Shown in pieces: positions 4,667 to 53,000 of a DNA stretch of 64,000 nt. The stretch is from the NCBI GenBank assembly GCA_016932855.1, contig JAFGCB010000023.1, forward strand, positions 4,825 to 68,824, given 5' to 3'. Each line of letters opens with the position of its first letter. Within the stretch, counting starts at the first letter, position 1. This stretch comes from Candidatus Omnitrophota bacterium (GTDB lineage: Bacteria > Omnitrophota > Gorgyraeia > Duberdicusellales > Duberdicusellaceae). The notes under the pieces are model-generated. The model worked only from the letters and a program-made list of their open reading frames with translations, did no database searches and was not told the DNA's origin. Both the position numbers and the translations under genes were made by a program.

Positions 4667-4712
4667 TTGCTATACTAAAGCGGATATTTAAGGCTGTCCA
4701 CCGCCTTAATTC

Positions 4713-8355: not shown

Positions 8356-8360
8356 AATTC

Positions 8361-9980: not shown

Positions 9981-10147
9981 TAATTAGCTCCTTACTAATT
10001 CTAAAGTAAATAGTATTTTACTAATCAATGATAATGCGCATATTATAACAGAAAAAGCTATTGGCACAATATCATTTTCAAAACCCCTCATATGATTCAA
10101 TACTGAATTTACGGGCCTGCCTTAAGACAGGCCTTCTTATTCACAAA

Positions 10148-10981: not shown

Positions 10982-11865
10982 CAGGCTTGTTTAAAAAATT
11001 TAGAAACTCTGTTAAGCATAAAAGATATACAGACCAGGATAAAACCAAAAATAAGCGCCTGACAACAGGCATAGCCGAAGCGTCTGTACTTTATCATGGA
11101 AAATAAAATTCTTATAACCGGCACTTCCGTATGTCCTGCCGGGCCTCCTCTGGTCATGGCTAAGATAAGGGCAAACCCTTGCATTGTGCCTAAGATAGTT
11201 AAGATAACCACCAGCACAAAGACAGGTATCATCATCGGGACTGTAACATTAGTAAATCTTTTTAAGGCATCTGCGCCGTCAACAGTTGCGGCTTCATAGA
11301 GCTGGCGGGGAATAGTCTGTAAGCCCGCCAAAAGAATAATAAAAGCCCATCCGAATCCTTTCCAGCAATGAACTAAAGCTATGGCCGTAAGGGCGGTTGA
11401 GCTGTCGGAAAGCCAATCCCGGGCAAGATACCCTAAGCCTACCATAGAAAGCCAGTGGTTTAAAAGCCCGAAATCTCCGTTATAGATCCATTTCCAGACT
11501 AAACCTACGACTATCTCGGAAAGAATCGGGGGAAGAAAAAATATAACCCGGTACACCGAGCCGGCACGTATTGCCCGGTCACAGGCTAAAGCCAGCAATA
11601 AAGCTAAGAAATTCTGAAAAGTAAGAGCCCATAAGGTTATGTAGCCGGCTTGAGCCATGGAAGACCACCAGGCTTTGTCGTCAAAGATGACCTCCTTAAA
11701 GTGGGCAAAGCCTACGAACTTCATGGTCGGATCTATCCCGTTCCAGGAATGCATGCTTAAATTAAAGACCTTAAAGAAAGGGTAGATATAGAACACCGAG
11801 AAGATAATAAGCGCGGGTAATACGAATAAGAAATTTGTAAACTCTCTTGTGCCTTTTTTCATCAA
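10981..11865 (-). CDS. Sugar ABC transporter permease (MalF/UgpA-like)
   Basis: EAA loop YEAATVDGADALKRFTNVTVPMM. Multi-TM. 4-nt overlap with the substrate-binding protein gene. Confidence 0.85.
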   Translation of the reverse strand: MMKKGTREFTNFLFVLPALIIFSVFYIYPFFKVFNLSMHSWNGIDPTMKFVGFAHFKEVIFDDKAWWSSMAQAGYITLWALTFQNFLALLLALACDRAIRAGSVYRVIFFLPPILSEIVVGLVWKWIYNGDFGLLNHWLSMVGLGYLARDWLSDSSTALTAIALVHCWKGFGWAFIILLAGLQTIPRQLYEAATVDGADALKRFTNVTVPMMIPVFVLVVILTILGTMQGFALILAMTRGGPAGHTEVPVIRILFSMIKYRRFGYACCQALIFGFILVCISFMLNRVSKFFKQA

Positions 11866-13342: not shown

Positions 13343-13708
13343 TTACTCGGCCTTATCCCGGAATAACCTGGACATGCCAAAAAGTTCAGGCTTATTCAGG
13401 TCCACGCCTAATCTCCAGTCTCCGGAAAATTGCCGCTCTACCCAGGCAACTCTTCCTTCCACTGTCAAAGGCTTCTTCTGGTCGGGAAAATGAAGCCATA
13501 TACGTAAAGGCGCTGCCTCGGGTATTCCTTCTTTGCTTACTATACCCAGTCCCTGAGCGCTTATATCGCAGGTTGAAGCCTGGGTAATTCTACCGTCCAT
13601 CAGGTCTAAACACCTTACAGGAAGATTGGCCTTAAACCTCTGAAACCGCCTTCTGTCTTCTTTTTCCTCAAACGCCGCTACTGACGCCATATTTATCACC
13701 TCCTTCAA
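13343..13708 (-). CDS. PilZ-domain protein (candidate c-di-GMP effector)
   Basis: RRRFQRF (RxxxR) and DISAQGLG (D/NxSxxG) motifs with PilZ spacing. GGAGG RBS upstream. Confidence 0.7.
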   Translation of the reverse strand: MKEVINMASVAAFEEKEDRRRFQRFKANLPVRCLDLMDGRITQASTCDISAQGLGIVSKEGIPEAAPLRIWLHFPDQKKPLTVEGRVAWVERQFSGDWRLGVDLNKPELFGMSRLFRDKAE

Positions 13709-14060: not shown

Positions 14061-14086
14061 AGCAAACTATTGCGGTTTTTCTTCCT

Positions 14087-35000: not shown

Positions 35001-38000
35001 ACTCTTACAAAGTTGCCCTTTTCAATGCATAATTGCAATATACCCATTGGAGTATTGGCCGGTTGCAAGACCGAAGATTGATCGATATCCGATAAATTCG
35101 TAAGAAAAATTCGAAGTTTACTCTTAGCTTCCGCCAATTCTAGTTTCTTAAAAATATAACTGAATGCCCTGCTTTCTAAGGCATGAATCATGAAAGGCGC
35201 TTTAAAAATAAAAGTTGATTGTCTAAAGGGGGCTCTTTCGTATTTCTTTGCCGGGCTTGAGGCTTTTTCCACCCGTAAAAATAATTGGCCGTTTACCGTC
35301 ATCTCCAGCGAGGAAAGCCCGTCTAAAACAAAAAGAGGCGATCTATAAAGGTCGCAAAAATAAACCCTTGCTTTCAGCTGGTTCTCTAACTTATAGGCTC
35401 TTAGTATATAACCTTTGTTATATACCTCTTCGCGCATGGCAAATAAAAAATCTCTTATCTCGATTAGATGAGTGTTTTTGTCATCCAGGTTAGCGAGAAA
35501 ATACTCGGGCTGATCCTCGGGGAACTTGACAGCCTCGAGGGTCTTTACAAAACGCATATCGCTAGACTCTTTCTCGATGTCTTTTATCTTCTTCCAGTAT
35601 TTTTCTACAAGATCAGGATTTGCGTCTATTAAGGCCTGAGTATACAGTGCCCCCGCGATGCCCAATTCGTCTTTAAGCGTATGAATTAGCCTTTTTTCTT
35701 CGGAACTGTATAAATAATCCGGATAAGAATGTAAATCATATTCCAACGGCCAGTCAAATATCTTGAAATCAAAAGGCAATACCGGCAAAACCTCACTTGC
35801 TTCATCCCAGCCCATTTCAATAACTACCGGAAAACTGGAAGAAGTCGTCTTCTGAACTAAACGCATTCCTTCTGTTTTGATGGCTATATCGACCTTTCTA
35901 TTAAAATACAAACTTCTAAGTTTTAATATACGATGAGAAAGATAAACCCGCTGCCAGTAATCCGGGGTGTTGAACAAATTAGTAAATAAATTCAAGAAAT
36001 CCAGGATTAAGGATTTAAAATCCGCTAAAGAAATATCTTCTTTAATAAATGATTTCCTTAAACCTGGTGTTAATTCTATGGGAAACGTCTGATTAAAAGC
36101 AGAACTTACTTTATATCTCCTGAAACCCCGCCCAATCGGGCTTGACAAAGTAGGAGAAAAGAGGTCGGGGCGCGCCCCGTAAATACCGATTTCTCGGGAA
36201 ACGAGGCAAGCTGGAGCACCTGCAACCCTGCCTGGCCGGCAGGCAGGCACGTAGAGGCTACTCCGGGGAATTACGCGCCCGAACCAAATAAAGTCAAAAA
36301 TAGAGGCAGCCCTCACCAACCAAGATAAAGACTGCCTCGGGACGTGGTGAAACTTTACGTCCCTGCTTACAGGGTAAATGAAAGGAAATACATTTGAGCT
36401 TACGCCAAGCTTGGCTAGCCGGCTCCCTAAAGGTGAGGAATTCTGCCCAGCAGGAAAAATAAGTATTTGGACTCCCGGAATTAAAGACTCTCCTGCCTCC
36501 CAAAATGTGTGTTTAATACCCAAAATATATCTATCCGGGGATTGCAAGATTCTCCAATCATGAGAAAGTGAATTATAATCAGGCAGATTCTCAAATGCAT
36601 TTAAAGCAACTTTCTGTGCGATTTTGTCTTTTCCTTGAAGCTTTAAAGGATTTGGCAGAAAATCACCGATCAAAGTTTTTTCTTTTACAACAAATCGGCC
36701 AATACCTAAAAAGGTTCCACTGGCCAGCAAATCCTTGTCTCCATCAAAAGAAGCAAGTGAAACTGTATAACGGCCGGGCTTAGTCTCCTCTCTTGCCCCG
36801 TATTCACTAAAGATACGTCCTAATCTAATTCCAAGCATCGATGCTTCTTCAAGTTCCGCAAGGCAAGGCGTCACTACGGTCAACTCTTCTTGCAAGCCTT
36901 GTCTATCCCAAATTAATTTAAGCATCCTGAAGCTTTTACTCTCAGGATGTAAGGGGTCAAGCCGGGCATATTCAATAGAGGAAAACCCTCCGTCATTTCC
37001 CATGGGCCTTATCGGGCTCGAGGACTCAGAAGTTTTACCATTGAGCATAAATCTTATATACAAGACTCCGGTCTTAAAAGTATCGCCGGGATTTTTAAAG
37101 TAATCGTAAAGATAAAAATCTCCTCTTTTAATAACCTCTTTAGGGCTGTTAACCTTGGTATAGCTCTGCTCCCTTAATGCTTCTCCTAAAACCGCGCCCC
37201 AGATATGGGCCTTTTGGACAAAGCCGTCAGGTAACTCAATTCTTATTCTCTTACCTAGCTTAGCCCAATAAAATCGGAATGGATTTTTAATCAAAAATGT
37301 GTCTAGTCCGAAACATTCCAGCCCTTTGGGAAAAGAACCCCTGTTTACCATAAAAGGCAAGTTAAATAAAGTCCTCACCTTAGCTTCTTTCTTGCTGCAC
37401 TCTGAAAGCGATATGTTAGGCTTATCTTTCCTGGAGTTAGCAATTATCTCGCCGTCGTTTACAGGATAGAAAAATCCGGAGGTTACCTTCTCGGAAAGAG
37501 GGCTTGAAGAAACAGCCTCTGCCTGACTAAGATATAATTTATACTTTTCTCTGATTTCTTGTGCTTTAGGGTGTTTAGCCCAAAGCATCCTAAGACGGTT
37601 TTCTACTTCCGGATCCGAGATGTCGAAATTTTCTAACATTACACTGCGGAAATACTTGACCACTTCGGGGCATGAAAGCTTATTTATTTTCCTGGAAGCC
37701 GTGCTTATTTTTCTATCCGCTGAAGCACCTATGTGGATAAGAGCGTCTTCTAGCGAACTTGGAAAGTACCAATCTCCGGCATCGTAGTGTCCACCCTTGC
37801 CCGAAACTTCACAAAAGTTATTCATTGTAAAAGCACTAAGCACAATACCTAAATCCCAGAACGAAAGCTTAGCTTCAACTACATAGTCGATTATTGTCTT
37901 TGCCTCAGCTACAGAGAATGAGCTTCTCTGTTTTAAAAAAGATAAGGCTTTACTTGATGGTATAATAGCAGCCTGAAGGACTTTCCTGCTTTTGGTATTC

Positions 38001-41000
38001 TTATAGCTAACTCCTAACCTTTTGATTAATACGGGAAAATTAAGCAAAATTTTTGTTTCCGGGCAAATACCTTCAAATACTATATACTCTTCTGCTATTC
38101 GATAAGCAGCTAAAAATCTTCTTTTCTCTTTAAAGGCGCCTGATAGACTGCTCATTGGTGTAGTAAACAAAATCCCTAAGAATCTTAAAAACATTATTCC
38201 TAATATTTTTAATTTAGAAAAAGATGATATTTTTTCCAAATCAGCAATATTAATATGGCTGGCCTTCTCTCTTATCAGAGAATCAAAATATTTTTTTGAT
38301 GCACCCAGTTTAAAAATCCTGTTACATAAAGATACATAGCTTTGTCGCATGCTGCTCAACCAAAATGCAAATACTGAGCGCTTTATCTTAACCACAATAC
38401 CCTCGCCCTCAAGAAGCCAAGCCGAACATTCCCAGCCTTTGCCTATAAATACAAGTGGCTTTTTAGAGGTAATCTTTAAAGGCGAAGAGGTAATATCATT
38501 GGCTGAAGACAGCCGTGATAATCTTATCGCATAAGTGCGTATATTGCTATTGTCCGGGGCAAGCATGTAGGCTTGCTGTGAATACTTTATCATCGGAGCA
38601 AAAAATACAGGATCGTTTGTTAAAACTAAGGCATGAGAAAATCCTCCTGATATTCCATATAACAAGTGACCTAGAATGCGGCCCAATGCTTTTCGATCCC
38701 TGTGTATTCCAAAACCAGCATCTACTAGCACCTTCTCGTCCACAGCTGTTTCGGCATCCCCGCTTAACCCTAAAAATTTATGCACATCTTCCCTGTGAAT
38801 GCTAAAATCCAAAATCTCAATCTTTGCATTGGCCAACAGACGGCCTAAAAATACATGGGGACTACCTTTCGGATTCGCAAAGTCTATAGAGGCTAAGCTG
38901 GAGCCATTGTTATACCCAAGTCGATCTAAGAGAAAATAGCCGAATAAATGACTCATAGCGCAGTGAGATAAGAAATGTTTAGTAAGCCATTTCCCTCCTA
39001 TCTCCATACCCCTTCCAAAAAGCTTGGCATCCTCATCTTCCAAGATGTTTAATAAAATCCCTAAATTATCGGCAAAAATGCTCTTAGCTTCCGGACTCTC
39101 GTCTTCAAAATAGTCTATTCCGCATCTGTAAGTACTGGCTTCGACAACGCTTGCTATATGGCCGTCTAAGCTATAATCCATAATAAAGGAATCGATAATT
39201 CCCAAGATTAAACCTGATTCATAGATTCTTTTTTTGTATTTTTTTATAAGCTCGGCGGGATTCTGATCAACGACAATTAATTTGGTAGGGCTGCAAAGAG
39301 CCAACGATATATTACTGACTACCGGCGGGCCGTTAATGACTCCTCTTTTAACAAACCAGTTATTTAAAACTGTATGTATATTTATAAATCTTAAAATTCC
39401 CCTATTGCTGCAAAATACCGCCTGCCTTACAGGTTCTCCTTTAAGTAGGCCGGAAAATAAGCCAGGGCTCTGTAAATTCAGACTCATCTTCTTAAACACT
39501 ATATCCGGCACAGGTAAGGGAGAATTTGACTGGTAAGGAATCTCACTTATTAGAATCTCCTGCGGCTTCTGTTTAAACCGGAAATGAAAACCGCAAAATT
39601 GCACATGTTCGTCTCTTACGGCTAGAGACCTTTCTATGGGCACAATCCGGATTACCTGAACAGGGATAGATGCTGTTGGCGAAGCGGATTGACTGTTTTG
39701 GATATCTTCCAGAAGAGAAATTACTGCATTAAATTTGTCATTATAAGATTTTGCTTTCTCCCGGCTGATATTGATTAATCTAGCCCAGGCCTGTATGCCG
39801 TTTTGAACTTTTTCCTTCTCCTCTAAATCTGTGATTGATTCAATCTTTCCTAAATTAGGAATCACCTCTTCTTTAAAAGGAATATGGTCAAGACATAACA
39901 CATGCCTAATTGAAAAAATCTCTCTTGTAATATCTCTGTAATCCTTAATAATACCTCGCTCAATTAAGCTACGTAAAGTCGTTAAAGCAGTCTCTACCTG
40001 CTCTTCTAGCTGTGTAATTATTCGATCTTGCGCTGGAGAAGAAAAGGTTGGGGATTCGGATTCTAGACTACCAGAAGACCAGCGGATAACAACCTCCCGA
40101 AAAAGAGCACGCAGAGCCAGAATCGCATCACGACGACTTACGAAATTAAGGGTATTTATAGCCTCCATGAAATTCTTATTTCTGGCTTGAGATTCACTAA
40201 GTCTATCAATTATCATTAGAATACGGTCTCTGCCGGAGCCTTTAAATTTCATAAAAGAACTAACTCTGGCTGATCCCATGATGATTTCAATGGCTGCCTT
40301 AATATCATCTCTATTGCCGGGTAAATTTATCAATTCATCCCCTAGTTCGTCTATATCTTTTATCCCGGAATACTTCTGCCGATAGGCCTGTTCTCCATCC
40401 CAGGGAGCAGACGTCCGTAAATCGTAGTCCCCAAGATTCTTTTGCGGAAAAAAGAGCAACGTCTCTTTCATCGACGGTATTATTCTTCTAAAGAATTGGT
40501 CGTAATCTTCTCCCTGACTGGTTACAATTTGACCTATCCGCCCAAGCCAATTATCCCTCCATATCACTTTATCAGCTGGAGAACTGGCAACCGGGGTTAA
40601 TTGATACAAAACACCCCGCTTTGTTCCCAGCGAACAAGGCACTGAAACAAACTTACAAGAAGTAGGCAAAACTTTACCGCCCTCAATAACCCTTTGTATC
40701 ATGACATACAAGAAAGGAATCTGGTCTGAATAGAAAATTTCTCCTGTTTTCGGGTTTCTTCCTCCCATAAATTCCGGCACGCTGAAAAGAATCGTCCCCT
40801 CGGCTCTATTTTTAACCCTGGCTATTCCTTCGACAATCTTGCCGATCTTATCAGGCCGCCAGGTAGGAGGAGCTTTAGAGGAAAGCTGGGCGTTAAGTTG
40901 ACTCGGAGTTATGACATCCGTAGCAACTACATGCGTAAATGCGCCTTTAAGAGTGTTTTGAATTTCGAATCTTGAAAAATCTCCCTCAATAAGATGAAAA

Positions 41001-44000
41001 CTGCCGCCTGCCGCCGAGATAGAAGATTTAAGCTCGCTATATCTTAGCTTCAATGCTGCTATGACTTCGGGTTTTTTCTCAACGCTTACGGCATTCGCTC
41101 CGAAAAGTGCAGCGATAAAAGAAAAACCGCCAAATAAGCCGCTTCCTATATCAAGTAAAGTATCCTTGGGTTTTATTCCCATGCTCTGCACAGTGTATCT
41201 GCCTCTTTCAAAAAGAAGCCCCTCATAGAAATGGCCGCCACCGTCAAATACCAGATCTTTCTTTTGCCATTCTTTCATCCAAGCCGCACCGGAAGGGATA
41301 TGCTGCACGAATACCCGGCGTATCTCTTCTTGAGCAGCCCTGCTGAGAGGCGAAGAACTTGCACCCGAAGTGCCCCATGCCGGTTCGTCTAACCCACCCG
41401 GTCTATAAGCCCTGCCGGTAAGTTCATCGATAGCGTAACCTTGACTTATTAAATCCTGCCGGGTCTGCGTGGATACGTATCTTTCAAATGGCCTTATCTT
41501 ATCAATATTATCAATCGGCGGCGGATTCCTATAAATACGGTCATCTCTATTCCTGTAAAACTCTTTCTCTATTTCCTTAAAACTTAAAGGAATACCTGCT
41601 TTAGCTAAATCCTCTTTGGTAAAAATCGGCTCATTAACTCCTATGGCCTTAAAGCAGTTTTCGCTTTCCGGATGTAATCCGGCTAAGACCAAGGCTGCGT
41701 ACTGGGTAAGATAAAGACGCGTTTCCGGATATTGCAGGGCCAAAGACCAGTAATCAGGGGGTGAAACTCCTACACGCAGAGGCCCAAGCACTTCTCCGGC
41801 TGCCCTCCTAATTACCGCCGGATCAAACATACGCAAGATATTTAAAGGATCATCATATACAGCGGTAACGCCCCTGGATATCTCCTCCTTAACAAGATTT
41901 CTTGCCCTATTAAGGTCCTCTTCTCCGTCTGCCTCCAGAATTCCGCGCACAAAACGATTGCTGGAAACTTTTATCAGCGCTTCATCCTCGTAGAGAAACC
42001 CGTCATAGAGAAAAGTCATAGGCATTTTAATTCTGTTCTTTGACTTAGGATGCTTATTGAACCTTTCATACAAATTAGGATGCAATAAAGGATTTAATAA
42101 TATATCCCTATCCGTAAGAAGAAGACCTCTGCCTATTTTTTGTACCGGCTGGTTAAGAAGAAGCACTTCGTAGCTGCTGTTTTTGAATCTAATGCGGCCT
42201 TCTAATAAAACCTCAAAGGACCCCCCTGAGTCCGAAGTCACCTTAACGGATTCTTTGGTGTATAATAGCGGCTTTAAGGAGCGGTTAGCAAGCTCCTTAA
42301 GCAATTCATCTAATGTATCAAGGGGCATCGATAAATGCAGATTCATTCCGACTTTAATCTCGGGGAATTCCTGAACTACGACCTGTATAATATTTGCAAG
42401 ATATTTTATCGGTAAGGTATCTACGATTTGCCCGTCGCTATTCATATGTCTATTTCTATGGAAAGCATCGCCGGTAAAACTTAAGATTATAAAAACCGGC
42501 TTTTTGCCCCTGGTTTTTCGCTGTAGGTTAGTTTGCCAGATTTCAGATATATTATCTCTTGCATCATCTAATGTTTTTGCCCAGAAACCGCTTGTGCCCA
42601 TGGTCAGAAAATCCGTTTTCGTTTCCAAAATAGCCAACTTGATAAGATCTTTTAAAAGCCAAGGGTCACCGCCGGTAAGAAGAGGCGGAATTCCTGCCTC
42701 ATAAGCCCAATCCAGGGCTCCCAACAACTCAGCCTTGCTTAAAACACCTCTTCTATACAAAAATCCGAGTTGACAATGCCGGCAGGGAAGAACGCAGCGG
42801 CCGGTAAGAACTATTACAAATGGCTCAAAATTGCCGAACATTGAATCTTTAAATCTATTGTTGAGTAAACCGATTATCTTTAATCTCTTCCTATCTAACC
42901 GGCTGTCAATGAAAGAATAGACGTACTTTTCTTTGGCGACTACGCGTTCTTTTTCATGCAAGTATTCCTGCCGGTTCCAGAGCTGATAATTATGCTGGAT
43001 GAGCTTGACTAAAGGATAGACTTGGGCCGCCTCGCAACCTGCGAGATATTCGCCAGCTTGAACAAACATCTCAAACCCTTCCGCGTTATCGATAATATGC
43101 TGGCCGATATAAACAAATCTCTGAAAATCGGAATCGATTTCGGCGATAGGGATCAACCATCGTAAATGAAAAGATCCCTCAAAACTTATCGAATCGATGA
43201 ATTCCAACTGCTTAGATCTGGGGATTTCTTCCCGCAAAAAGTTTACTGCATATAATAGCAAGGCTAAATTAGTAAAGGCTGGCTCTAATAAATCATCCTG
43301 CCCAATATTATGATTGACCATATCATTGAAAATTAAAAACGCCGAAGAAAAAACCCTATTCTTTTCAGAAAGGTATTGGTCTAAAGGATCCTGAATGGGT
43401 CCGGGTAATATTTCCTTTCCGGAAGCCCCGCTTGTACTTTTTGCTTTAATAATGGGTTCTACTGTTTGACCGGACTGGTAAAGTTTAATAAGCTCTCTTA
43501 AGCCTAAAGCCTTCTCACGCGGCTTTCCCATCTGCTTTCTAAGCTCTTGCTTTTTGTGTTCCTTTCTCTGAGTTCTAAGCTTCATCTGTTTCTGGGCTCT
43601 TCTTTTTGCCGCCTGCTTATTCTTCTTCTTAGCCGGGGAGCTTAAGGCCGTATCCTGGAAAATGGAAGATAGTGAGCTTTCTGCCTTAATCATACGGGAA
43701 GTTATTATTGTCTTTCTTATAAACTTTTTTATCTCTCTTAAGCTTGTTACTGCTTCCTGATGGTTCGGTATTACTATAATATCCTGGCCGCTGTTTATAA
43801 GCCTGGCGACCATTAACATTTCTTCGCTCTCTCTTCTTAGATACAGAAGCCCAAGACTTTTCGGACCTTTATAGGGCTGTAAAAACAACCTGCCGCTTGC
43901 TTTTTCAATCTTATTTTCTATCCGCTGTGTTGAAGAATAAAAAACAAAGCAGTCTCTTCCGCCTTCGCTTTTCAGACTGACTCCTCTTATCGAAAGTATG

Positions 44001-47000
44001 GAATTAGTAATAAAATCTGCATGCCGATTTTTTTTAAGAGGACTAGAAGATAAATTCCGTATTTGAGGAAGAATATTATTGAAGGAAAGTCTATTTTTAT
44101 CAAAAACATATATCCTCGTTATCGCACTTAAAGGAACGTCTTCTGCGGCCCTGTTGCAATCATCATACCAACCGGTTATTCTTCGCTTATCAAGCTTAAC
44201 GACAACAGATATAAAGTTTTCCGTTGGGTATTCTCCTTCCGGCTCAAAGGCATAGGGTAAAGCTTTTATCGGAGAAGGATCAGTATCTATAAACGGCCTT
44301 ACTGCATGGGCAGTTACCCTTGAAAGAAGTAATCCTACTTTGGCAACCTCAAGTAAGTCTTTAATCGTTATCCTCATTCCCCGGTATCTTATATCTTGGC
44401 CTGTTTCCATTGAAGCCACAAGGCCTTTTCTTACCTTAAGTGAATTGGGCGGATTAAAATATTCCATATCCCATAAAAGTCTTCTTAATTCTTTCTCATC
44501 AGAAAAAATGCTGTCTTTTAATAATACTGAGGCTGATTTTAAAGCCTTTCTTCTTTTTCCCAAAGGAGAGCTGCCAGATGATGAAGCGGGGATTTCCGGA
44601 TATCGATATGAAAGATGGCTGGGGTTTCTATTCCGGTCGTATTTTGTAGCCTTAACCTCATTCTTTATAGCTATTAAAACTAAATCCGGTGCCCTATCCA
44701 CAAAGAAAATTCCCTGCGTTACTACGCCCGGGGTTATCTTAAGCATCCGCGCTGTCTTGGCAGGATTTATTATCATCTTCCTTGAGAAATCGGCATCGAC
44801 AATAATCCTTCTTTCACGGTCGCCGGGCCTGAATATAGAGCTATCATCGTTTCTTCGTATAGACACCTTACCTGCCCCCATAATCTTTAACATAAACTTA
44901 ACCAGATAAAAATAAGGCTGTTTTACCTCAAAGGGCAAAGAAAACTTGCCGAGAAATTCTTTCGACTTTTTACTTTCAGCGATAATAATTATCTGCCCTT
45001 CATCCTTTACCGCCCGCATATTTGCCAATTCATCGGTAAGGGCTCCTCCGCCGCCTTTGATTGCGTAGCCGTGACTGTCAACTTCATCTGCTCCGTCTAC
45101 GATAATATCTATGCCCAAACCTTTCGCTTTAAGCTCTTCAAGCTCCATTATTTCAAATCCAAGGTTTCCAAGTAATTCTCTGGTCCTTGGCGAAGAAGAA
45201 ATAACAATGATACTGTCCTTTATATCGCCGCAGAATATGTCTAATTCTTCAATAAAATGATTCCAGACATTTGTCCCGCTTCCCGCACCTAAGATCAATT
45301 TCTCGTTTAAATTCTTCTTTTTTAGGGCGGCCTCAAAGACGAGCTCAGCGGCATACTGCGAGACAAGGCGTTTCTCCTGCTCATAGTCTGAGAATTTTAA
45401 AACCCTCTTTGTTCTCTGAAAAACACTTGTTGCGTCCAAGGGCGATGAAAAAGCCTGAAGAATTATGACATCTTTATTTACTTTGCGAATATAACTTTCG
45501 GGGTAAAGACGGCGGGTTGGAGTATCTGTAAGAAAAGAAGATAAAGCGGCCCGGACACGGCTGAGGGACCATCCAGCCACGGAAGAGGTTACCCTCGGGG
45601 AATGACCGCGTCCGAACCGATTCAATACTATATTAAGATTGTTTCTTAGAAAATTAGGCAAGGAATATTTAAAGAAGAGGCCCGGGAGCGCTGGAGTACC
45701 ACCAGCCACGGTGAGGCCACTCCGGGGAAAAACGCTCCCGAACCAATCTAATACTATTTTAAAACTATTATTAAAAAAAGCAAAAGGAAGAATGACTAGG
45801 GCAGGAAGGGCGAAAGGGATAGAAGAATCAATATTAATTTGAGGTGGACTGTTTATTGATAAAGAAAGCCACTCGGAAACCTGAGCAAGACTTGCTGCCG
45901 TAAGTCCAGTGCCTATCCGGTTGCCTCTGTTATGCAACATTTTTGTTTGAAACAAAAGTGTTGCATTAAAATCGCCGCCCAGAGGAGAACTGCCGGAATT
46001 ATCTTCCGTCGGCAAGAGATAATCCTCAAGCTCAGGCCAGTCTTTTAAACAATGTTCAAAGAAATCTACAAATCGATTGCTTTCCATTCTCTCTCCGAAG
46101 GGCCCAAGCCAAGATTTTTCCAGTAAATACTGAAAATAGGCGCCGTCAACATAACCTCTTCTTTTACTGCCTATCTCCTTATCTATACCTAATAATCTAA
46201 AAGTATTTCTTACATCGCCTCTTACGGCAATATCATGCAATAAAACCATAAGATAAGCGTTGATGCTGTCAATCTTTACTGATCTTTTCTTGTTAAGAAA
46301 TTCGGATATTTTTTCAGTAAATGCAGTATTGTCAAACAGGAAAAATAAAGGCCTTAGCAGAAGCTCAGACTCTGATAAAGCCTTCAAAATATGCGGATAG
46401 AAGTGGTACAAAGCCATAAAACAGGCGTATTCATAAGGCACTAAGTCGGCAAGAAGAACCGCCTGGATATGGTGGGTGTCACTGGCTTCATCATAACGTA
46501 TGGAAGGCTTATTTCTTTCAATCGAATCGATGACGATATTTGTCTTAAGCTCTTTCTTCAACTTCGGCCGCCTGGGGAAGTTCTTAACTCTTGTATCCGA
46601 TTGCAGGAACAAATTCCTCGAAAGAAAATCAAAAATTCCCTCAAGCCGTGCCTTAAGCTGACCCTGCGCAAACTCGCCAAGGCTTTTCAGGTTTTGATTA
46701 TCCTTAAACTGAAATCCCTCTTCTGTAATAATAGCTTCGCCCAAATCAACCGATTCAAATTTAACTACTTTTTCGAAGACAGCAAATTCTTTATCCTCAT
46801 AAACTCTATCAATTATCACAAAAGCCGTCCGGTCGATTCCATCGATGACTATCGTTATCGTGGGAGTAAAAATAATATCCGGGGTATGCTTAAAAACGCT
46901 GAGCATTGACGGCCAGCCGGTCTGTTTATCTAATTCAATCGAGACGGTGGGATTAATTATGCCTCCGTGGGGCTGGGAAAAATGACAGACTTCTATGGGA

Positions 47001-50000
47001 AGCAGCTGACCAGCCTTAGATTTTAAACCAATCTCTTTTATAAAGGCCGAGCGTAAGCTATCCCAGAATCCCTCGATAGCCGGCCATTTGTTGATAAACG
47101 AACGGCTAGGCTCCCAGCGGGCCCAGTCTATTATAGCCCTGTATCTACCGTTCTGGATCTCATCAAAAATTAAAGTATGATTTTTTAAAATCTTGAAAAT
47201 TCTCTCTTGGCAGCCATCGATGTTTTCCACCTCCGGCATAATACGAGAAATATTTACGGTAACAGCTATAAATTCAGTAAAGAAGCTACCCACAAATCTT
47301 TTATTAACCTCCTCCTTTACAAACCTCTCTGATTTTACTCCCGGGCCGAAGTGGAAAATCCAATGGCTGCGATCACGCTTCTTTATCTCGGAGCGCAAGT
47401 CATAGGCTATCGATTCTAGTCTTTCCTCAAACCTCCTTAATAACCACAAAGCGATTTTTTCTCCGTAGACAGAATCGTAGCTTAGGCCGTTTACAGGGTC
47501 TATGGAGACTATAAAATCTGAATTCCACCAGGGCATAAACTCCATCTTAACCGGAGAACTGGAAAAACCTTCAGAAATCGTGAATTTGTCGCGATTTTTG
47601 AGCAATCTTGATGCTATCCTTGAGACCGGACCGTCATTTTCAAGGTCAGCTCTGTATTTCAAGCTTACTTCCACAGGCGGAGCTGAAACAATATCAAGCA
47701 CCTGAACGGAAAAATTAAAGATATTATCGAGGCTACCTAAATCCCGGCCATGCTCAGCCATAATAAATATTCTCTGCAAGTAATCTTCAACCAGAAAGTT
47801 AATCCTGTCTATCTTTGTAACTTTCTCCATATCTGCCTTTTGGGTCCACCAGTTATAAAAGAAATCATAAGCCTCGCTGGAAGCCATCTCAGACAACTGA
47901 AGCAATATTTGCCTTACCTGCGCCAGCTCAGAAAATAAAGGCACAACTACTGACACAGCGACTCCCTTATTCTCTGCGGCAATTGGGGGCTTAAGAAACC
48001 CTAGCCGATTTTCAAAGCTTTGACTCCAGCCTTTAAGAAAAACCTCAAGGCCGTGAACAAGAAAAACTTTAGGCGACAATAAATCTGTCTTATATATTGC
48101 GCGGTATTCTTTCAATTCATAAGGAACAACTATACGCAAAGCCGGAGCTAAAACCGGGGAAAGAACTGATATACAACGGTAAAGTTTAGATTGCTTATCT
48201 GGATATCCCATGGAAATAAACTCTTTAAAGTCTACTGTAAGCATATTTAAGAAAGAATCTAGCCAGGCTCCTAGTTCTTTTGCGGACTTAACGCTATTAT
48301 CCTTTTCAAAAACCTGCTTAAGCCTTCCCGCCCAAAACGCGCCCAGAATATAAACTGCTCTTTGGGCTTCAAGCCCTGACACCAGTCTGGAACGCTCCTC
48401 CTCTTTCAATTCCGGCTTATCAAGAATAAACTGGATTATAGCCCTATGCCCAGCTGAAGTACCTTTTCCTTCAAAAATATTATTTGGGTATTCGCCGCTA
48501 AGGGTCGAGTTTAAATAATCTATATCGCCATTAATCTCTTCAACCGAATCATTATCTTGTAAAAATCTATAGACAGCCCGCATGCTCGACTCAAGAGACT
48601 TAAGAGGGGAGCTTATTTCTTTCCAGGTACCGGCTAATACATATACTTCCTTAATATAGTCTCTGGTGTGTTTGCCTGATTTTCTTCCTTGCAAAAGTTC
48701 CTCCATTAAATTCAGCACTTCCTCGGCTACCCTCTCGTCTTTAACTCCAACCACCTTAACATCTGCCCTAACCCCGTCAACCAAACAAAGCTCTATTAAA
48801 CTTACAATGTTACTCGGTGCTATTCTTATATATTTATCCGGGCCTGTCTCTGCGCGCTTAATCCAAATATCAGCATTGAGCTCGCTTTCGACCGTACCAG
48901 CAAAGTCCGTTATATATACGGCGTTTCCAGCGTGCTTTCCTTTTATATCTGCCTTTACAATAATCCTTCTACTGGCTTGAACCAAAGGCGAGCTGGTTGG
49001 CTGTTGCTTAATCGAAAAAACAGAAGCATCCCCTTTTTCTCTACCTTGCTTCATCGATGCTGTGGAGGAATTTTTTATTGTTATTATCCTTTCTTTGTTT
49101 ACCGGGCTTGAAGACTTCTTTTTCTCCACAAGATGGATAATGCCTCTTAGTCCGTTTATGCGCCAGTCGGGGTCTTCAGCAAACAGCTTATCCACCATAT
49201 TATCAGTAAGTCCGACAATAAGCTCAAACTTTAAGGTCCGCAAGGCCGCAAAGCTTGTCGGAAAATAATCGGCTAATTTTTCCAGCTTCTGGGTATAGGA
49301 CCAACACCTGTCACCTATAAGCTTGCGGTAATTAAGATCACCCTTTATTATAACCAGGTCTGATTGAGCCAAATCCTGCTTTAAAGGCCGGGGCATCATC
49401 CTGAAAGATAGCGGCCTTGTCCAGAATAATTCGTCCTTAAGAACAAGCTTATCTGTACGAATATATTCCCTTAAACGCCGGGCGAAATTCCTAGAAACAG
49501 GACTATCAAAGTATTCCAAGGCTTCCAAGAAGATGTAGACGTCTTTAACCAAAGCATCGGAAATAAACTGCGGCCTGTCCTTAAGATGTACGAAAACCTT
49601 TTCCACAAGCCTCAGTTTAAGAAGAAAATCAACCATGAATAAATCAAACATCAGTTCATGACCGAAATTATCGACTATAATATCAAGGCGTTTAATGCGG
49701 CCCGATACTAAAATCCGGGCAAGCCTCCAGGCATGGTTTTTAACCAAGTTCCTACTCCATGCCTTGGCTAGAATAAATCTCTTGGTTTTTTCTTCCATGT
49801 CTTTATCACTGCCGAAAATAAAGGAAGTGCTGCACAAATCAATACGGTTGCCCCAAAGCATGCAATTTACCAGATAAAAAGCGGCGTCAACGTCTTGTAT
49901 TCCCCTCTGAGAGGTAAGATTTTCGTAAGCATTGATAAAAATATTTATCGCACCTGTCTTACCCGGCAAAGTCTCTAATTTCCGCTTTTCAAAAGGATCT

Positions 50001-53000
50001 TTTTTATTCTGAAAATATCCTATGGCTTCGGCTACGCGTATAAAAAAATAATTCTCGGCAAAAAACGACGGTAAATCCCCCCAGCTTAAACCCCCAAAAA
50101 AACCGATAAATCCGTTCCATAACCGCCTATCAGGAATATCATGCATGAGAGGCTCGGGGTCCATCCCGCTCATTAGCTCTTTAAACAAGCGGCCCAAATT
50201 CCTGACCACGTCTCTAGGATATATATTGTCTATAACAATGGTTTCGATCATCGCAGGTAAATACTCAGTTACTATCTTTTTAGCAAAAGAGCCCGGCTCT
50301 GAACACATTATTAACGGTGGCTCTCCCATAGTATCATATGGCCAAACAGTTGCTTGACGGAAGTCCACAATCTCTTCCATTGACAGCAAAACCTTTTCAA
50401 AAGAAATAAGATTCTTAACATGTTTATAGCCTTTTTCTCTTATCTGCGTCTGGGTTATGTGATTGGATAAAGATATGAAAAGTGAATTCGCCTTTTCAGG
50501 ATCATGGCCTTGATAAGGAGAGATGAAGGCTGCCTGATAGAAAATAGCCCACCAGAGATTAGGAGAACCTCGTACGCTATTATGGCGGCGATAATATTCC
50601 ATGAATGTACGCAAGAAAGCATCATCTCTCGAATGTATGCCAAAAACTGTCTCAATTTGGGACTTAACAAATAAATTCCTGTAATCCTGCATGAATTTCG
50701 CAAGAAGCTTAGCAGCTACAACCTTATCTACCAAAAAGCTAAAAACTTCTTTTACAACCTCAAGATTTTCCGCACTTATAACCCCACCCTCTAAAATAAG
50801 GCTAACCTCATTAAGAGGCCCTAAAAGAATTGCAAACTCAGGCTCGTGAAAATAAAGGTAATCTCTGTGCTCGGGGTTTAAAAAATCCTCTTTAAGTATT
50901 TTCCTGGCAAGGAACCACTTATTGTTTTTTAGATTATGCAAAATTTTTGCCGCTTTTGTGATAAACTCTTCATTTCTATTATCAACGCTCTCCCGCAAGA
51001 CCGTAAGCCTTCCCCTCTGAAGACTTTCAACTATTGCCCTGCTTTGAACCATCCGCCTATCCAAAAATTTCCCGCTAAGCCTTAAAAGGCCTTTTGTCTG
51101 ATCTAACCGCCCAAGGCTTATCAATTCCCGGGCGTATTTAATAGTAGTCCTGGCCAGGCGTTTGTGCCTTATCCTTACCCTCTTTAGCTGCTTAACCAAG
51201 GAATCCAAGTCTTTTTCAATCGGCCCCGTTATGAACTGAATATCCCTAATATGGGTAAAAACTTCTTGGCAATCGCTAAGCCAGTTTATTTCCTTAAGTT
51301 CGCTGTCAATCTGATGGTCTACTGTTCTAAAAGCCTGCCATATACTTTGATAGGAAGCATATATATAGGTAAGCACCCAGGTGCCCCAAGGCTTAATCCA
51401 TTTGTAGCGCATCTGGCGCACTCGATACTGCCCGCTCCTTACGGCCACGCCCAAAAATCTAAATCTTTCCGAATCCCGGCTAACTTCAACTCTGTCATTT
51501 TCAGCATCAAGAGAAAATATTGCTGAAACCAATAGAGAATTGGTTACTGTTGCCGGAATAGCGTTAAGGCTTTTGTTCTCTTTAGCGGCAGTAATAAGGG
51601 CCGGTAGATTTTCCGGCTTAAGGGCTCTTTCCATTTGAACAACGACTTTATCGGGAATGGCTTTTTTATAACACTCGTCGTCTTCAATCCTATCTAGCTC
51701 ATCTTGAATTTTCCCGGCTAGGTTCTGAAGCATATTTCCTATTCTCCGCTGGGATTTTCCTCTTCTTTGCAGATAAGTCCGCTTAAAATCCAGGTAATAA
51801 ATCTTTAAGTTCCATTCCATAAGCAGTTCCTCAAGACGGCCAAGGCAGGCCAGACGTTTTAATGTTGAAACCGGGCTGGAAGATAACCCAGGCGTATCCA
51901 AGGAAGCCGGGCTTGAGAAGATAAAATTATTACCGAAACCGGATAAAGCCCTTCCGCTCATAAGCCCCACAAGGCTTAACTCTCTTATAAGCAACCCATA
52001 ACCGTAATCCAGGCTTCTATCCCATGTATCAAATAATTGACGTGTCCTCTCTTTTCCTTGGCTAAAAATCCTAAATCCATAACGGCTGACAATCCCGGTA
52101 TAAGTCTCAGGAAATGTCAGGACGTATTCTATATCTTCAAAAGGGTATCCCACGATAAACCCGCAAGCTTTAACCAAGTCAGGATTATTTACATCATCTT
52201 CATTTTCATCACACCACTGAAGAATATTGGTAATATTGTCTATCCCTTCGGGTTTATCGCCATTAGAGATTAAATCAAAGATTGAACTCCTAAGCCCTGA
52301 ATCGCTAATTCCGCTTTCCAACAAAAGATTACCTTCCTGCTTAAATTTCTCCGTAAGGCCTGGCAGAAAAACCGTAAATGAAGGAAGATAAAACAATAAC
52401 TCCAAATCTTTCTGCTCGTTTTGCAAAAGACCATGTTCATCGGTTAAAGGCGTTATATCAGGATCGTTATTTTTTTCATCCACGCACTGTATGTATCCCG
52501 GCTTTATGCCTAAGAAGACCGGAAGAACATCAGGATAAAGAATTAGCTGTTTTCTTTCTCTGTCAAGGCGGTTAAAGACTTGTTTTATGCTGTTCTGCCT
52601 CGACTGCGATATGCCCAGACTAATCCTCAACTCCTCCAGGTTTATTGGGCTGGAAGTCTTCGACTTGGGACTGCTTCCAGCCACAGGAAGGTTATTACGG
52701 GAAAAACCTCTGCCAAAACGATATGGCATAGCTTGCTTAAGAGGAGAAGAAGCTGTCTTCTGGATATCCTCTGAGGATAGAGATGATCCGGAATCAGGGG
52801 CAGGATTTTTTCTTCTGCCGGAAATTAGCTTTTGTATTAAATAAATAATACCCAAGGGCAAAGGCAAGAAAGAAAGGTCTGCTTTTGATGCCCGGCTAGA
52901 CTGTATGCTTTCACTTATAGCTTCTATGGTTTGTTTAAGAAATATACCGATCTGGCCGAGGCCTATAGCCTGAATTATATGGGCAGTAAGCATTGCGAAG

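What the first reader, a model, noticed from the sequence alone, without database searches (positions are those of the whole stretch)
44700..45380. Intact ribose-5-phosphate isomerase A motif triad inside the giant ORF
GxGSGT (ILGAGSGTN), DGADE (IIVDGADEVD) and KGGGGA (AIKGGGGALTDE) occur in canonical order and spacing, with the C-terminal PGVV strand. RpiA is a core pentose-phosphate enzyme. Seeing it as an internal domain of a giant protein is unexpected. It could be an extra copy supporting sugar-modifying chemistry elsewhere in the protein, or a captured gene.
Basis: partly seen in the sequence, partly recalled or inferred. Interest (0 to 1): 0.55.

Follow-up and report, generated by a model that had tools for sequence, protein, structure and literature searches.

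The report
RpiA enzyme domain inside Omnitrophota giant protein
A complete, apparently active copy of the sugar-phosphate enzyme ribose-5-phosphate isomerase A lies inside a protein of at least 16,626 amino acids from an uncultured Omnitrophota bacterium; it is a real domain, but such embedded metabolic enzymes are already reported for this phylum.

Summary
Window 44642-45382 (minus strand; aa 6196-6442 of a stop-free ORF of at least 16,626 aa) encodes a full-length RpiA-family domain. Pfam PF06026 scores 98 bits against a cut-off of 26. The AlphaFold model has pLDDT 94.9, and its top 36 PDB matches are all RpiA (TM up to 0.92). The equivalents of E. coli K7, D81, D84, K94, E103 and K121 are all present.

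It is not a recent capture. Local GC content is unremarkable, and there are no tRNAs or flanking repeats. The domain also sits in a well-supported clade (197/200 NJ bootstraps) of RpiA domains, most of which lie inside large Candidatus Omnitrophota proteins. This clade carries FRPGxRExR where canonical RpiA has TDNGN. Three relatives have a ribulose-phosphate 3-epimerase domain directly upstream.

The neighbouring genes match NCBI Omnitrophota MAG proteins exactly. The locus layout (giant gene, then pilZ, sugar ABC transporter and glycosidases) matches published Omnitrophota giant-gene loci, which are already reported to carry central-carbon enzyme domains.

The likely role is R5P/Ru5P interconversion as one module of a membrane-anchored multi-enzyme protein. 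Two things remain untested: which side of the membrane it faces, and whether the genome also has a separate rpiA or rpiB. I rate it a new member of a known kind, of moderate-to-low interest.

The parts
14087..63967 (-). Giant ORF of 16,626 aa. The reading frame is still open up to window position 64000, so the true N-terminus may lie outside the window.
   Evidence: The 3' 6.9 kb is reproduced in an independent Logan contig.
44642..45382 (-). RpiA-family domain (aa 6196-6442), full length, containing both the catalytic domain and the small C-terminal domain.
   Evidence: Pfam PF06026 at 98.2 bits. NCBIfam PRK00702 positions 5-221 of 223 at 116.5 bits, below the equivalog cut-off of 192. PDB phmmer. 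AF2 pLDDT 94.9. Foldseek finds RpiA structures with TM up to 0.92.
45272..45289 (-). GAGSGT phosphate-binding loop (aa 6227-6232), aligned to E. coli GTGST. T28 becomes S, S30 becomes T and T31 becomes N.
45083..45097 (-). DGADE motif (aa 6291-6295). D6291 and D6294 are the equivalents of E. coli D81 and D84.
45029..45058 (-). KGGGGALTDE motif (aa 6304-6313). K6304 is the K94 equivalent and E6313 the E103 equivalent. K6334 (window 44966-44968) is the K121 equivalent, and K6199 (window 45371-45373) the K7 equivalent.
44786..44833 (-). FRPGDRERRIIVDADF (aa 6379-6394), the clade-specific signature that replaces the canonical TDNGN-ILD. It lies in the small C-terminal domain.
   Evidence: Alignment A1. 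FRP[GD] occurs only in the P0037-P0043 group (plus fragment P0102 and P0043's cluster-mate P0187) among 335 fetched proteins, whereas 162 carry T[DE]xG[NH].
44702..44731 (-). PGVVTQGIFF C-terminal strand (aa 6413-6422).
45911..46807 (-). Conserved domain of unknown function (aa 5721-6019), about 180 aa upstream of RpiA. It is shared with five large proteins, four of them named Omnitrophota at NCBI.
   Evidence: The structure model is poor (pLDDT 55.7) and has no significant fold match.
49187..50194 (-). ARMT1-like/DUF89 damage-control phosphatase domain (aa 4592-4927).
   Evidence: Pfam PF01937 at 174.6 bits. PDB 7t7n at E 4e-44.
42569..42814 (-). Radical-SAM-like segment (aa 7052-7133) with an intact CxxxCxxC motif (CVLPCRHC, window 42773-42796) and a GGDP motif.
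   Evidence: Pfam PF04055 at 17-19 bits, below the cut-off. Motifs read directly.
53393..55099 (-). Cluster of about 9 hydrophobic helices (aa 2957-3525), the predicted membrane anchor upstream of the enzyme-bearing stretch.
   Evidence: Kyte-Doolittle scan. This is a crude method.
13343..13708 (-). PilZ gene immediately downstream of the giant gene.
   Evidence: Pfam. Exact match to the NCBI Omnitrophota protein MBN2119889.1.
352..13175 (-). Downstream sugar-uptake genes: a solute-binding protein, two ABC permeases, an MFS_2 transporter, GH2/GH72-like glycosidases, a TPR protein and a ROK regulator.
   Evidence: Exact matches to NCBI Candidatus Omnitrophota MAG proteins MBN2119880-MBN2119888.

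Best explanation
This is a genuine, probably catalytically competent ribose-5-phosphate isomerase A module built into a giant, membrane-anchored, multi-enzyme protein of an uncultured Omnitrophota bacterium. It belongs to a lineage of RpiA domains, so far seen in Omnitrophota, that was recruited into large proteins long ago and has diverged from housekeeping RpiA, mainly in the small C-terminal (oligomerisation) domain. [quoted passage not shown] Together these would process sugars brought in by the transporter and glycosidase genes encoded just downstream. Shown here: family, fold, residue conservation, clade membership, taxonomy and locus layout. Inferred: enzymatic activity, substrate, compartment and the metabolic link to the neighbouring genes.
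For: Family and fold: Pfam 98 bits; full-length NCBIfam alignment; AF2 pLDDT 94.9 and pTM 0.90; the top 36 Foldseek PDB hits are all RpiA, with the next family (eIF2B/R15P isomerase) 10^6-fold or more weaker in E-value. Active site: the K7, D81, D84, K94, E103 and K121 equivalents are all present; PMC7589169 states that D115 and E137 of the Chlamydomonas enzyme (which I map to E. coli D81 and E103) are the proposed catalytic residues and that the pocket lies in domain 1. Lineage: a HMMER search of 1.84 billion representatives ranks RpiA domains in 2214-, 1984-, 865- and 6252-aa proteins above every standalone RpiA; NCBI assigns three of these relatives (P0037, P0040, and P0043 through cluster-mate P0187) to Candidatus Omnitrophota; they form a clade with the window domain in 197 of 200 NJ bootstraps against 186 standalone RpiA, and they share an exclusive FRPG signature. 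Pathway context: Rpe sits directly upstream of RpiA in P0042, P0043 and P0124 and in two JGI contigs, and P0124 keeps DGADE and KGGGGA. Only the RpiA domain and one other domain within the 1,151-aa query have any detectable homologue, so these are conserved islands in otherwise unconserved sequence. Host and locus: exact matches to NCBI Omnitrophota MAG proteins; the pilZ, SBP, permease and glycosidase order matches West-Roberts et al. section 11. No sign of recent capture. Cytoplasmic side: a CxxxCxxC radical-SAM-like segment and a sugar-phosphate phosphatase share the same long stretch free of strongly predicted membrane helices (weaker hydrophobic segments exist); the 124 aa between the hydrophobic segment 6046-6064 and RpiA carry 17 K/R against 5 D/E.
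Against: Scores fall below both NCBIfam equivalog cut-offs (116.5 against 192; 106.7 against 126.4), so the same function as housekeeping RpiA is not guaranteed. Identity to any characterised RpiA is only about 30%. The small domain that mediates oligomerisation in canonical RpiA is remodelled, and canonical RpiA works as a dimer or tetramer (PMC7589169). The window protein has no Rpe-like region. Two Rpe-linked relatives (P0042, P0043) have lost the D81 equivalent and part of the glycine loop, so not every clade member need be active. Topology is unresolved: my hydropathy scan is crude, the N-terminus is outside the window, and by the positive-inside rule the stretch after TM 3507-3525 could equally be outside the membrane unless the weaker segment at 3647-3665 spans it. 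Several relatives begin with signal-peptide-like sequences, and both preprints report that metabolic domains of such giants are often predicted to be extracytoplasmic. No activity data exist.
Confidence: 0.62

Rival explanations
1. The domain keeps the RpiA fold and pocket but no longer works as a housekeeping isomerase. It would instead be a sugar-phosphate-binding sensor or scaffold, or an isomerase with a different substrate, inside a regulatory and adhesive giant protein.
For: Scores are below the NCBIfam equivalog thresholds. The small domain is remodelled (FRPGxRExR replaces TDNGN). Clade members P0042 and P0043 have D81 replaced by Ile and KGGGGA degraded to KG(T/S)SG, which shows relaxed catalytic constraint in part of the clade. 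The RpiA fold is shared with ligand-sensing DeoR C-terminal domains: PF00455 is co-listed on many RpiA hits. The same polypeptide carries HTH_8, HTH_17 and a weak HATPase_c signature.
Against: In the window copy, every residue known to bind or act on R5P is retained. Pfam does not report DeoRC for it. Rpe-RpiA tandems, including one with intact motifs (P0124), point to a genuine pentose-phosphate role.
Confidence: 0.2
2. A housekeeping rpiA gene was recently captured or fused into the giant ORF, either by horizontal transfer or by loss of a stop codon, or appears merged through an assembly or frameshift artefact.
For: In two JGI contigs related modules (an 865-885-aa Rpe-RpiA protein, DUF218 and GDH pieces) occur as separate genes; in L083 two of them abut with only a 2-base gap. 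Fusion and fission of such units therefore does happen in this group.
Against: GC content across the domain (0.41-0.43) matches the surrounding sequence. There are no tRNAs in 64 kb and no direct or inverted repeats within 2 kb either side. There is no Met or start codon at the domain boundary, and the frame is open for thousands of codons on both sides. No standalone RpiA exceeds about 40% identity, while other members of its own clade, mostly in large proteins, reach 41-48%. The clade has 197/200 support.
Confidence: 0.05
3. The RpiA module faces the periplasm or cell surface, or is released there by proteolysis, and acts on substrates from prey or the environment rather than on the cell's own pentose-phosphate pool.
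For: Published predictions place metabolic domains of Omnitrophota giants outside the cytoplasm. Relatives P0038, P0041 and P0042 start with signal-peptide-like sequences. A LysM domain at the C-terminus and a weak LspA-like segment suggest envelope association. By the positive-inside rule, the stretch after TM 3507-3525 may be outside.
Against: Phosphorylated sugars, SAM and Fe-S cluster chemistry (the radical-SAM-like CxxxCxxC is 620 aa downstream) are cytoplasmic by established biochemistry. The sequence preceding RpiA is strongly basic after a hydrophobic segment. West-Roberts et al. themselves caution that an overlooked TM helix may have given the wrong localisation.
Confidence: 0.13

Closest known systems
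Housekeeping ribose-5-phosphate isomerase A (EC 5.3.1.6; Pfam PF06026; e.g. E. coli RpiA, PDB 1KS2/1O8B)
   Same: The two-domain fold is the same (TM up to 0.92). The motif order is the same. The K7, D81, D84, K94, E103 and K121 equivalents are retained. The domain length is about 245 aa.
   Different: It is an internal domain of a protein of at least 16,626 aa rather than a free homodimeric protein of 220-240 aa. Identity is only about 30%. It scores below the NCBIfam equivalog cut-offs. The small-domain motif TDNGN is replaced by FRPGDRERR. A 3-aa insertion (DEG) follows the catalytic Glu.
RpiA domains of the same clade in Candidatus Omnitrophota proteins (NCBI MCX5702371.1, 2214 aa; MFA5146368.1, 6263 aa; MFC1621275.1, 444 aa; plus P0038 and P0042)
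   Same: They form one clade (197/200 bootstraps) and share the FRPG signature and the GSGT(T/N)xW(N/D)(H/Y) loop. Most are embedded in multi-domain proteins of the same phylum.
   Different: They are only 35-48% identical to the window domain, and the flanking sequences do not align. Several relatives have Rpe directly upstream, which the window protein lacks. The window protein is much larger than any of them as recorded.
Omnitrophota giant proteins ('Archaeovorin-type' in West-Roberts et al. 2023; 'multi-enzyme metabolic cluster' class in the 2026 complete-genome preprint)
   Same: It is a very long single ORF with clusters of TM helices, sparse recognisable domains and embedded sugar-metabolism enzymes. 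It is followed by pilZ, solute-binding and ABC transporter genes and glycosyl hydrolases.
   Different: At 16.6 kaa (at most about 18.8 kaa given the 73.5-kb contig) it is below West-Roberts' 30,000-aa search threshold. Neither paper's main text mentions RpiA or DUF89. No HEAT, GT5, GT1 or dockerin domains were detected here. The upstream secretion-system genes cannot be seen.
Multifunctional fused pathway enzymes in general (e.g. eukaryotic AROM or CAD; named from my own knowledge as an analogy only)
   Same: Consecutive pathway steps sit on one polypeptide: the Rpe-RpiA tandem in relatives.
   Different: In the window protein RpiA is isolated among about 8,000 aa of mostly unrecognisable sequence rather than in a compact pathway fusion.

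Membership tests
RpiA family (Pfam PF06026) | Sequence scores above the Pfam gathering threshold over most of the model | tested here: met
   98.2 bits against 26, model positions 2-169 of 173. The result is the same when the domain is scanned within a 4,500-aa chunk.
RpiA family (Pfam PF06026) | Two-domain alpha/beta RpiA fold | tested here: met
   AF2 model with pLDDT 94.9 and pTM 0.90. Foldseek top 36 PDB hits are all RpiA, with E down to 5e-21 and TMt 0.80-0.92.
RpiA family (Pfam PF06026) | Active-site residues: phosphate loop GxGxGS/T, D81, D84, K94, E103, K121 and K7 (E. coli numbering) | tested here: met
   K6199, S6230/T6232, D6291, D6294, K6304, E6313 and K6334 align to these positions. 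T31 is Asn here.
RpiA equivalog (NCBIfam NF001924 / TIGR00021: isofunctional housekeeping RpiA) | Score at or above the curated equivalog cut-off | tested here: not met
   116.5 against a cut-off of 192, and 106.7 against 126.4.
RpiA equivalog (NCBIfam NF001924 / TIGR00021: isofunctional housekeeping RpiA) | Free-standing protein of about 220-260 aa that forms homodimers or homotetramers | tested here: not met
   It is an internal domain at aa 6196-6442 of an ORF of at least 16,626 aa. Oligomeric state cannot be tested here.
RpiA equivalog (NCBIfam NF001924 / TIGR00021: isofunctional housekeeping RpiA) | Catalyses R5P <-> Ru5P | not testable with these tools
   This needs an enzyme assay or genetic complementation.
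RpiA clade found mostly in large Omnitrophota proteins (defined here) | Groups with P0037-P0043 to the exclusion of standalone RpiA | tested here: met
   NJ tree of 193 sequences and 227 columns; the split is recovered in 197 of 200 bootstraps. These are also the highest-scoring hits in the search of 1.84 billion representatives.
RpiA clade found mostly in large Omnitrophota proteins (defined here) | FRP(G/D) signature in place of TDNGN | tested here: met
   FRPGDRERR at aa 6379-6387. The motif is exclusive to this clade among 335 fetched proteins.
Omnitrophota giant-gene locus (West-Roberts et al. 2023) | Host belongs to the phylum Omnitrophota | tested here: met
   Six neighbouring proteins are exact matches to NCBI 'Candidatus Omnitrophota bacterium' MAG proteins in the range MBN2119880-MBN2119889, and a seventh clusters with MBN2119886.1; all lie on a 73,476-bp contig.
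Omnitrophota giant-gene locus (West-Roberts et al. 2023) | [quoted passage not shown] | tested here: met
   Pfam scan of the ten downstream ORFs, compared with section 11 of the paper.
Omnitrophota giant-gene locus (West-Roberts et al. 2023) | Preceded by a type II/IV-like secretion system locus | not testable with these tools
   The window ends inside the ORF, and the giant protein is too long for the contig look-up tool.
Omnitrophota giant-gene locus (West-Roberts et al. 2023) | Protein of at least 30,000 aa (their search threshold) | tested here: not met
   At least 16,626 aa in the window. The NCBI contig is 73,476 bp and extends at least 2.9 kb beyond the other end of the window, so the protein has at most about 18,800 aa on that contig. 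It does meet the 10-kaa criterion of the 2026 preprint.

The most novel reading that the evidence does not exclude
The embedded domain is the cell's only ribose-5-phosphate isomerase. On this reading, an essential step that supplies ribose-5-phosphate for nucleotide synthesis has moved from a small soluble enzyme into a giant membrane-anchored protein. In some relatives it would have moved together with Rpe, forming a membrane-tethered pentose-phosphate metabolon coupled to sugar import. An even stranger variant is that these pentose-phosphate modules work outside the cytoplasm on material from prey cells.
Probability: 0.12. Interest if true: 0.7.

Novelty: new member of a known kind. Interest (0 to 1): 0.35.

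Why it matters
This adds the non-oxidative pentose-phosphate pathway to the central-carbon enzymes known to be embedded in Omnitrophota giant proteins: RpiA here, and Rpe-RpiA tandems in relatives. It also shows that these embedded domains form their own old lineage rather than being occasional captures. The domain is small, models confidently and should be easy to assay, which makes it a practical probe for two open questions about these giant proteins. The first is whether their metabolic domains are active. The second is which side of the membrane they face. If the genome lacked any other R5P isomerase, the giant protein would be essential for nucleotide precursor supply. That would change how these proteins are viewed, since they are currently discussed mainly as adhesins or prey-degrading machines.

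Tried and rejected
1. Word-indexed protein searches. The search with RpiA plus flanks returned only standalone RpiA at 42% identity or less over short stretches (about 30% over the full domain). The search with the clade profile was likewise dominated by standalone RpiA, plus one 390-aa Rpe-RpiA fragment (P0124). Neither returned a large embedded homologue; those appeared only in the exhaustive HMMER search.

2. Genome-contig scans. The single-protein scan found nothing. Alignment A1 was too divergent to seed a scan. No GTDB representative with a close embedded copy was recovered, so the search for a second rpiA in the same genome could not be done.

3. Metagenome-contig scans. The single-protein scan found nothing. 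A back-translated GVVTQGIFF pattern found only two contigs, both with the 865-885-aa Rpe-RpiA protein.

4. Signs of capture. The GC profile, tRNA scan and repeat search were all negative. Rfam gave no hit in the window.

5. An Rpe-like region in the window protein. phmmer with the Rpe domain of P0042 at E up to 10 found none.

6. Lenient Pfam scans (E up to 1) of about 4,900 aa around the domain added nothing beyond the weak radical SAM hit. PADLOC gave no hits.

7. The upstream conserved domain (aa 5721-6019). There were no word-indexed homologues. The AF2 model from a 5-sequence alignment had pLDDT 55.7. The fold search had no hit below E 0.4; weak resemblance to minigluzincin metallopeptidases (selecase, abylysin) is not significant.

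8. Topology from hydropathy and the positive-inside rule was inconclusive.

9. Literature. Neither Omnitrophota giant-gene preprint mentions ribose, RpiA, DUF89 or the pentose phosphate pathway in its main text or held supplements. Seymour et al. 2023 does not discuss the pentose phosphate pathway. A literal search for E. coli residue names found no open-access paper. Residue roles were taken from PMC7589169 and from my own recollection of the E. coli RpiA structural papers.

10. Taxon names for the nearest standalone RpiA were mostly unavailable, so the sister group of the embedded clade is unknown.
Full report
**1. What is in the sequence**

The finding lies on the minus strand inside one ORF, window 14087..63967, of 16,626 codons. 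The frame is still open for the 33 bases between the listed GTG and the window edge, so the protein may be longer.

- ILGAGSGTN, with GAGSGT at aa 6227-6232.
- IIVDGADEVD, with DGADE at aa 6291-6295.
- AIKGGGGALTDE, from aa 6304.
- ITPGVVTQGIFF, from aa 6413.

**2. Is it RpiA?**

Sequence, structure and active-site evidence all say yes.
- **Pfam.** The only hit on this stretch is Rib_5-P_isom_A (PF06026): E 5e-28, 98.2 bits against a gathering score of 26, covering model positions 2-169 of 173.
- **NCBIfam.** The RpiA models align over the full length (positions 5-221 of 223). The scores are below the curated equivalog cut-offs: 116.5 against 192, and 106.7 against 126.4.
- **PDB by sequence.** phmmer finds 20 distinct RpiA structures and nothing else, the best at E 2e-19.
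- **Active site.** The alignment to E. coli RpiA (1KS2) pairs D6291, D6294, K6304, E6313 and K6334 with D81, D84, K94, E103 and K121. K6199 pairs with K7. The phosphate loop GTGST appears as GSGTN. PMC7589169 describes the Chlamydomonas residues D115 and E137, which I map to E. coli D81 and E103 by their constant +34 offset, as the proposed catalytic residues. It places the pocket in domain 1 and assigns the small domain 2 a role in oligomerisation.
- **Fold.** An AlphaFold2 model built on a 37-sequence alignment has mean pLDDT 94.9 and pTM 0.90. Its first 36 Foldseek hits in the PDB are all RpiA, with E down to 5e-21 and target-normalised TM of 0.80-0.92. The next family (eIF2B / ribose-1,5-bisphosphate isomerase) appears only at E of about 1e-6 with TM below 0.45.

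Family membership is established. Identity of function with housekeeping RpiA is likely but not proven.

**3. Whose gene is it?**

Six of the seven downstream proteins I looked up match NCBI proteins MBN2119880.1-MBN2119889.1 exactly. The seventh clusters at 90% identity or more with a shorter NCBI form. All are named 'Candidatus Omnitrophota bacterium' and lie on a 73,476-bp MAG contig.

Two Logan contigs from run SRR13394437 independently reproduce parts of the window. One covers 8440-20981 at 99.99% identity.

The order of genes is: giant gene, PilZ, solute-binding protein, two ABC permeases, MFS transporter, GH2/GH72-like glycosidases, ROK regulator. This is the arrangement West-Roberts et al. 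describe downstream of Omnitrophota giant genes.

The same preprint reports triosephosphate isomerase, glucose-phosphate isomerase, FBPase, PGM/PMM and aldolase domains inside such proteins. A 2026 preprint defines a 'multi-enzyme metabolic cluster' class of giant Omnitrophota proteins. Neither paper mentions RpiA, ribose or DUF89 in its main text.

**4. Relatives of the domain**

Word-indexed searches returned only standalone RpiA of about 240 aa, at about 30% identity over the full domain.

An exhaustive HMMER search of 1.84 billion representatives used aa 5750-6900 as the query. It ranked RpiA domains that sit in larger proteins above all standalone RpiA:

| Protein | Length (aa) | Bits | Identity |
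|---|---|---|---|
| P0037 | 2214 | 144 | 44% |
| P0038 | 1984 | not noted | 41% |
| P0042 | 865 | not noted | not noted |
| P0043 | 6252 | not noted | not noted |
| P0040 | 444 | not noted | not noted |
| P0041 | 341 | not noted | not noted |
| P0039 | fragment | not noted | not noted |

The best standalone RpiA scores 83 bits or less.

NCBI assigns these proteins to Candidatus Omnitrophota and already calls P0037, P0040 and the P0043 cluster-mate 'ribose 5-phosphate isomerase A'.

I built a neighbour-joining tree of the seven domains plus 186 of the best-matching standalone RpiA (227 trimmed columns). The seven form an exclusive split in 197 of 200 bootstraps.

They share a signature, FRP(G/D)xxExR-I-(D/N)-x-(D/N)F, in place of the canonical TDNGN-ILD. 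Among 335 fetched proteins, FRP[GD] occurs only in this clade, whereas 162 carry the canonical form. In the model this signature falls in the loop between strands of the small C-terminal domain. That is the part implicated in oligomerisation of free RpiA. A change there is what one might expect when the domain no longer exists as a free dimer; this is inference.

**5. Context within relatives**

- P0042 has a Pfam-verified ribulose-phosphate 3-epimerase domain (93.9 bits) directly before its RpiA domain.
- P0043 and the fragment P0124 have the same tandem, at E 7.5e-70 and 1e-62 to the P0042 Rpe domain.
- Two JGI metagenome contigs carry the same 865-885-aa Rpe-RpiA gene.

Rpe and RpiA catalyse adjacent steps of the non-oxidative pentose-phosphate pathway, so the tandem argues that the RpiA domain keeps its pathway role. 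There are caveats. P0042 and P0043 have Ile for the D81 equivalent and a degraded glycine loop, whereas P0124 and the window copy are intact. The window protein has no detectable Rpe-like region.

**6. Context within the window protein**

Only eight Pfam families are detected in 16.6 kaa:

| Domain | Position (aa) | Support |
|---|---|---|
| ARMT1/DUF89 phosphatase | 4592-4927 | 174.6 bits; PDB 7t7n E 4e-44 |
| RpiA | 6196-6442 | see section 2 |
| Radical-SAM-like | 7052-7133 | Weak Pfam hit; intact CVLPCRHC and GGDP |
| Signal-peptidase-II-like | ~11570-11700 | Weak |
| HTH_17 | 13886-13932 | 30.3 bits, cut-off 27 |
| HATPase_c | 15035-15113 | Weak |
| HTH_8 | 15801-15842 | 58 bits, cut-off 22 |
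| LysM | 16568-16597 | 33.2 bits, cut-off 20.9 |

Within the 1,151-aa query, only RpiA and one other segment (aa ~5721-6019) have any homologue in 1.84 billion proteins. The second segment is shared with five large proteins; NCBI names four of them Omnitrophota, and the fifth clusters with an Omnitrophota protein. The recognisable domains are therefore conserved islands in rapidly diverging sequence, which itself indicates selection on the RpiA module.

**7. Recent capture?**

There is no evidence for it.
- GC content across the domain is 0.41-0.43, against 0.38-0.47 in the surrounding 10 kb.
- ARAGORN finds no tRNA in the window.
- There are no direct or inverted repeats within about 2 kb on either side.
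- Rfam finds nothing in the window.
- There is no Met at the domain boundary.

Together with the phylogeny, the recruitment is old and lineage-specific.

**8. Compartment**

A Kyte-Doolittle scan gives strong helices at aa 1372, about nine between 2957 and 3525, four between 11569 and 12541, and one at 14370. RpiA therefore lies in an ~8,000-aa stretch without strong membrane helices.

Weaker hydrophobic segments exist at 3647-3665 and 6046-6064, and K/R counts in the loops give conflicting parities. The 124 aa between the 6046-6064 segment and RpiA are strongly basic (17 K/R against 5 D/E). That would place RpiA inside the cell if the segment spans the membrane.

On biochemical grounds, sugar phosphates, SAM and Fe-S chemistry point to the cytoplasm. 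However, the published topology predictions for such giants and the signal-peptide-like N-termini of relatives keep the extracytoplasmic reading alive. I consider this unresolved.

**9. What could not be done**

The housekeeping-copy question needs the whole MAG. Neither the genome nor the metagenome scans returned the organism or a close relative. The function of the upstream conserved domain remains unknown: the model has pLDDT 55.7 and no significant fold match.

**10. Verdict**

It is an ancient, lineage-specific component of large Omnitrophota proteins, not a recent capture. The general phenomenon is published and homologous proteins already carry RpiA names in GenBank, so I class it as a new member of a known kind.

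Points that appear to be new, though modest, are:
- the embedded-RpiA clade and its FRPG signature;
- the recurrent Rpe-RpiA tandem;
- the co-occurrence with a DUF89 phosphatase.

Interest is 0.35. The most novel reading not excluded is that this domain is the cell's only R5P isomerase, or that it works outside the cytoplasm. I give that a probability of about 0.12.

Noticed in passing
window 49187-50194 (-), aa 4592-4927 of the giant ORF: A strong ARMT1-like/DUF89 'damage-control' phosphatase domain (Pfam 174.6 bits). It is closest to the eukaryotic-type enzymes of S. pombe, yeast and human (PDB 7t7n, E 4e-44). It is a second sugar-phosphate-acting module in the same membrane-helix-poor stretch as RpiA, and the Omnitrophota giant-gene papers I read do not mention it.
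   Followed up: partly
window 42569-42814 (-), aa 7052-7133: A radical-SAM-like segment scores below the Pfam threshold (17-19 bits) but has an intact CxxxCxxC motif (CVLPCRHC, aa 7058-7065) and a GGDP motif. It lies about 620 aa downstream of RpiA. If real, it argues that this stretch is cytoplasmic.
   Followed up: partly
window 45911-46807 (-), aa 5721-6019: A conserved domain of unknown function is shared with five large proteins, mostly Omnitrophota (P0048, P0088, P0101, P0105, P0125). It has the motif T-x-H-I-Q-x-I-L-L-x-D-L-x-P-x-E-Y-A followed by H-x-F-x-x-H. The AF2 model is poor (pLDDT 55.7). It shows only non-significant resemblance to minigluzincin metallopeptidases.
   Followed up: yes
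window 51979-52605 and 15433-16038 (-), aa 3788-3996 and 15977-16178: This is an internal duplication within the giant protein: two ~200-aa segments are 33% identical (E 7e-25). A short motif of about 25-50 aa also recurs at aa ~9864, 10879, 11079, 12924 and 16452, with up to 93% identity between copies.
   Followed up: no
window 28868-29260 (-), aa ~11570-11700: A weak signal-peptidase-II (Peptidase_A8, LspA) match at 20.4 bits coincides with four hydrophobic helices. The 2026 Omnitrophota preprint also lists signal-peptidase-II content in a 147-kaa giant protein. It may be relevant to the proposed self-processing of these proteins.
   Followed up: no
window 14177-14266 (LysM) and 16442-16567 (HTH_8), both (-): A Fis-type HTH (58 bits) and a LysM peptidoglycan-binding domain (33 bits) both lie after the last strong predicted TM helix (aa 14370). 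One is normally cytoplasmic and the other extracytoplasmic. Either a membrane helix has been missed or one of the domains is used unconventionally.
   Followed up: no
L083 1013-7688 and L084 63-11150 (JGI contigs Ga0208769_1002531 and Ga0075114_10001638): Here an 865-885-aa Rpe-RpiA protein with a signal-peptide-like start is a separate gene. It abuts a DUF218/YdcF protein that carries the N-terminal piece of a Glu/Leu/Phe/Val dehydrogenase (2-base gap), and a gene for the rest of that dehydrogenase follows. This looks like the same mosaic of enzyme modules split into tightly packed genes, which hints at fusion and fission between operons and giant genes.
   Followed up: partly
window 45776-45832 (-), aa 6046-6064: A hydrophobic, Pro-rich segment (IDSSIPFALPALVILPFAF, KD 1.74) lies about 130 aa before RpiA and is followed by a strongly basic linker (17 K/R against 5 D/E in 124 aa). 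It may be an overlooked membrane helix or re-entrant segment that sets the side on which RpiA lies.
   Followed up: partly
window 63968-64000: The giant ORF's frame is still open at the window edge (KQEVIAEIPQG precedes the listed GTG), so the listed start is not necessarily the true start. The source NCBI contig is 73,476 bp, which leaves at most about 6.5 kb more on this side.
   Followed up: partly
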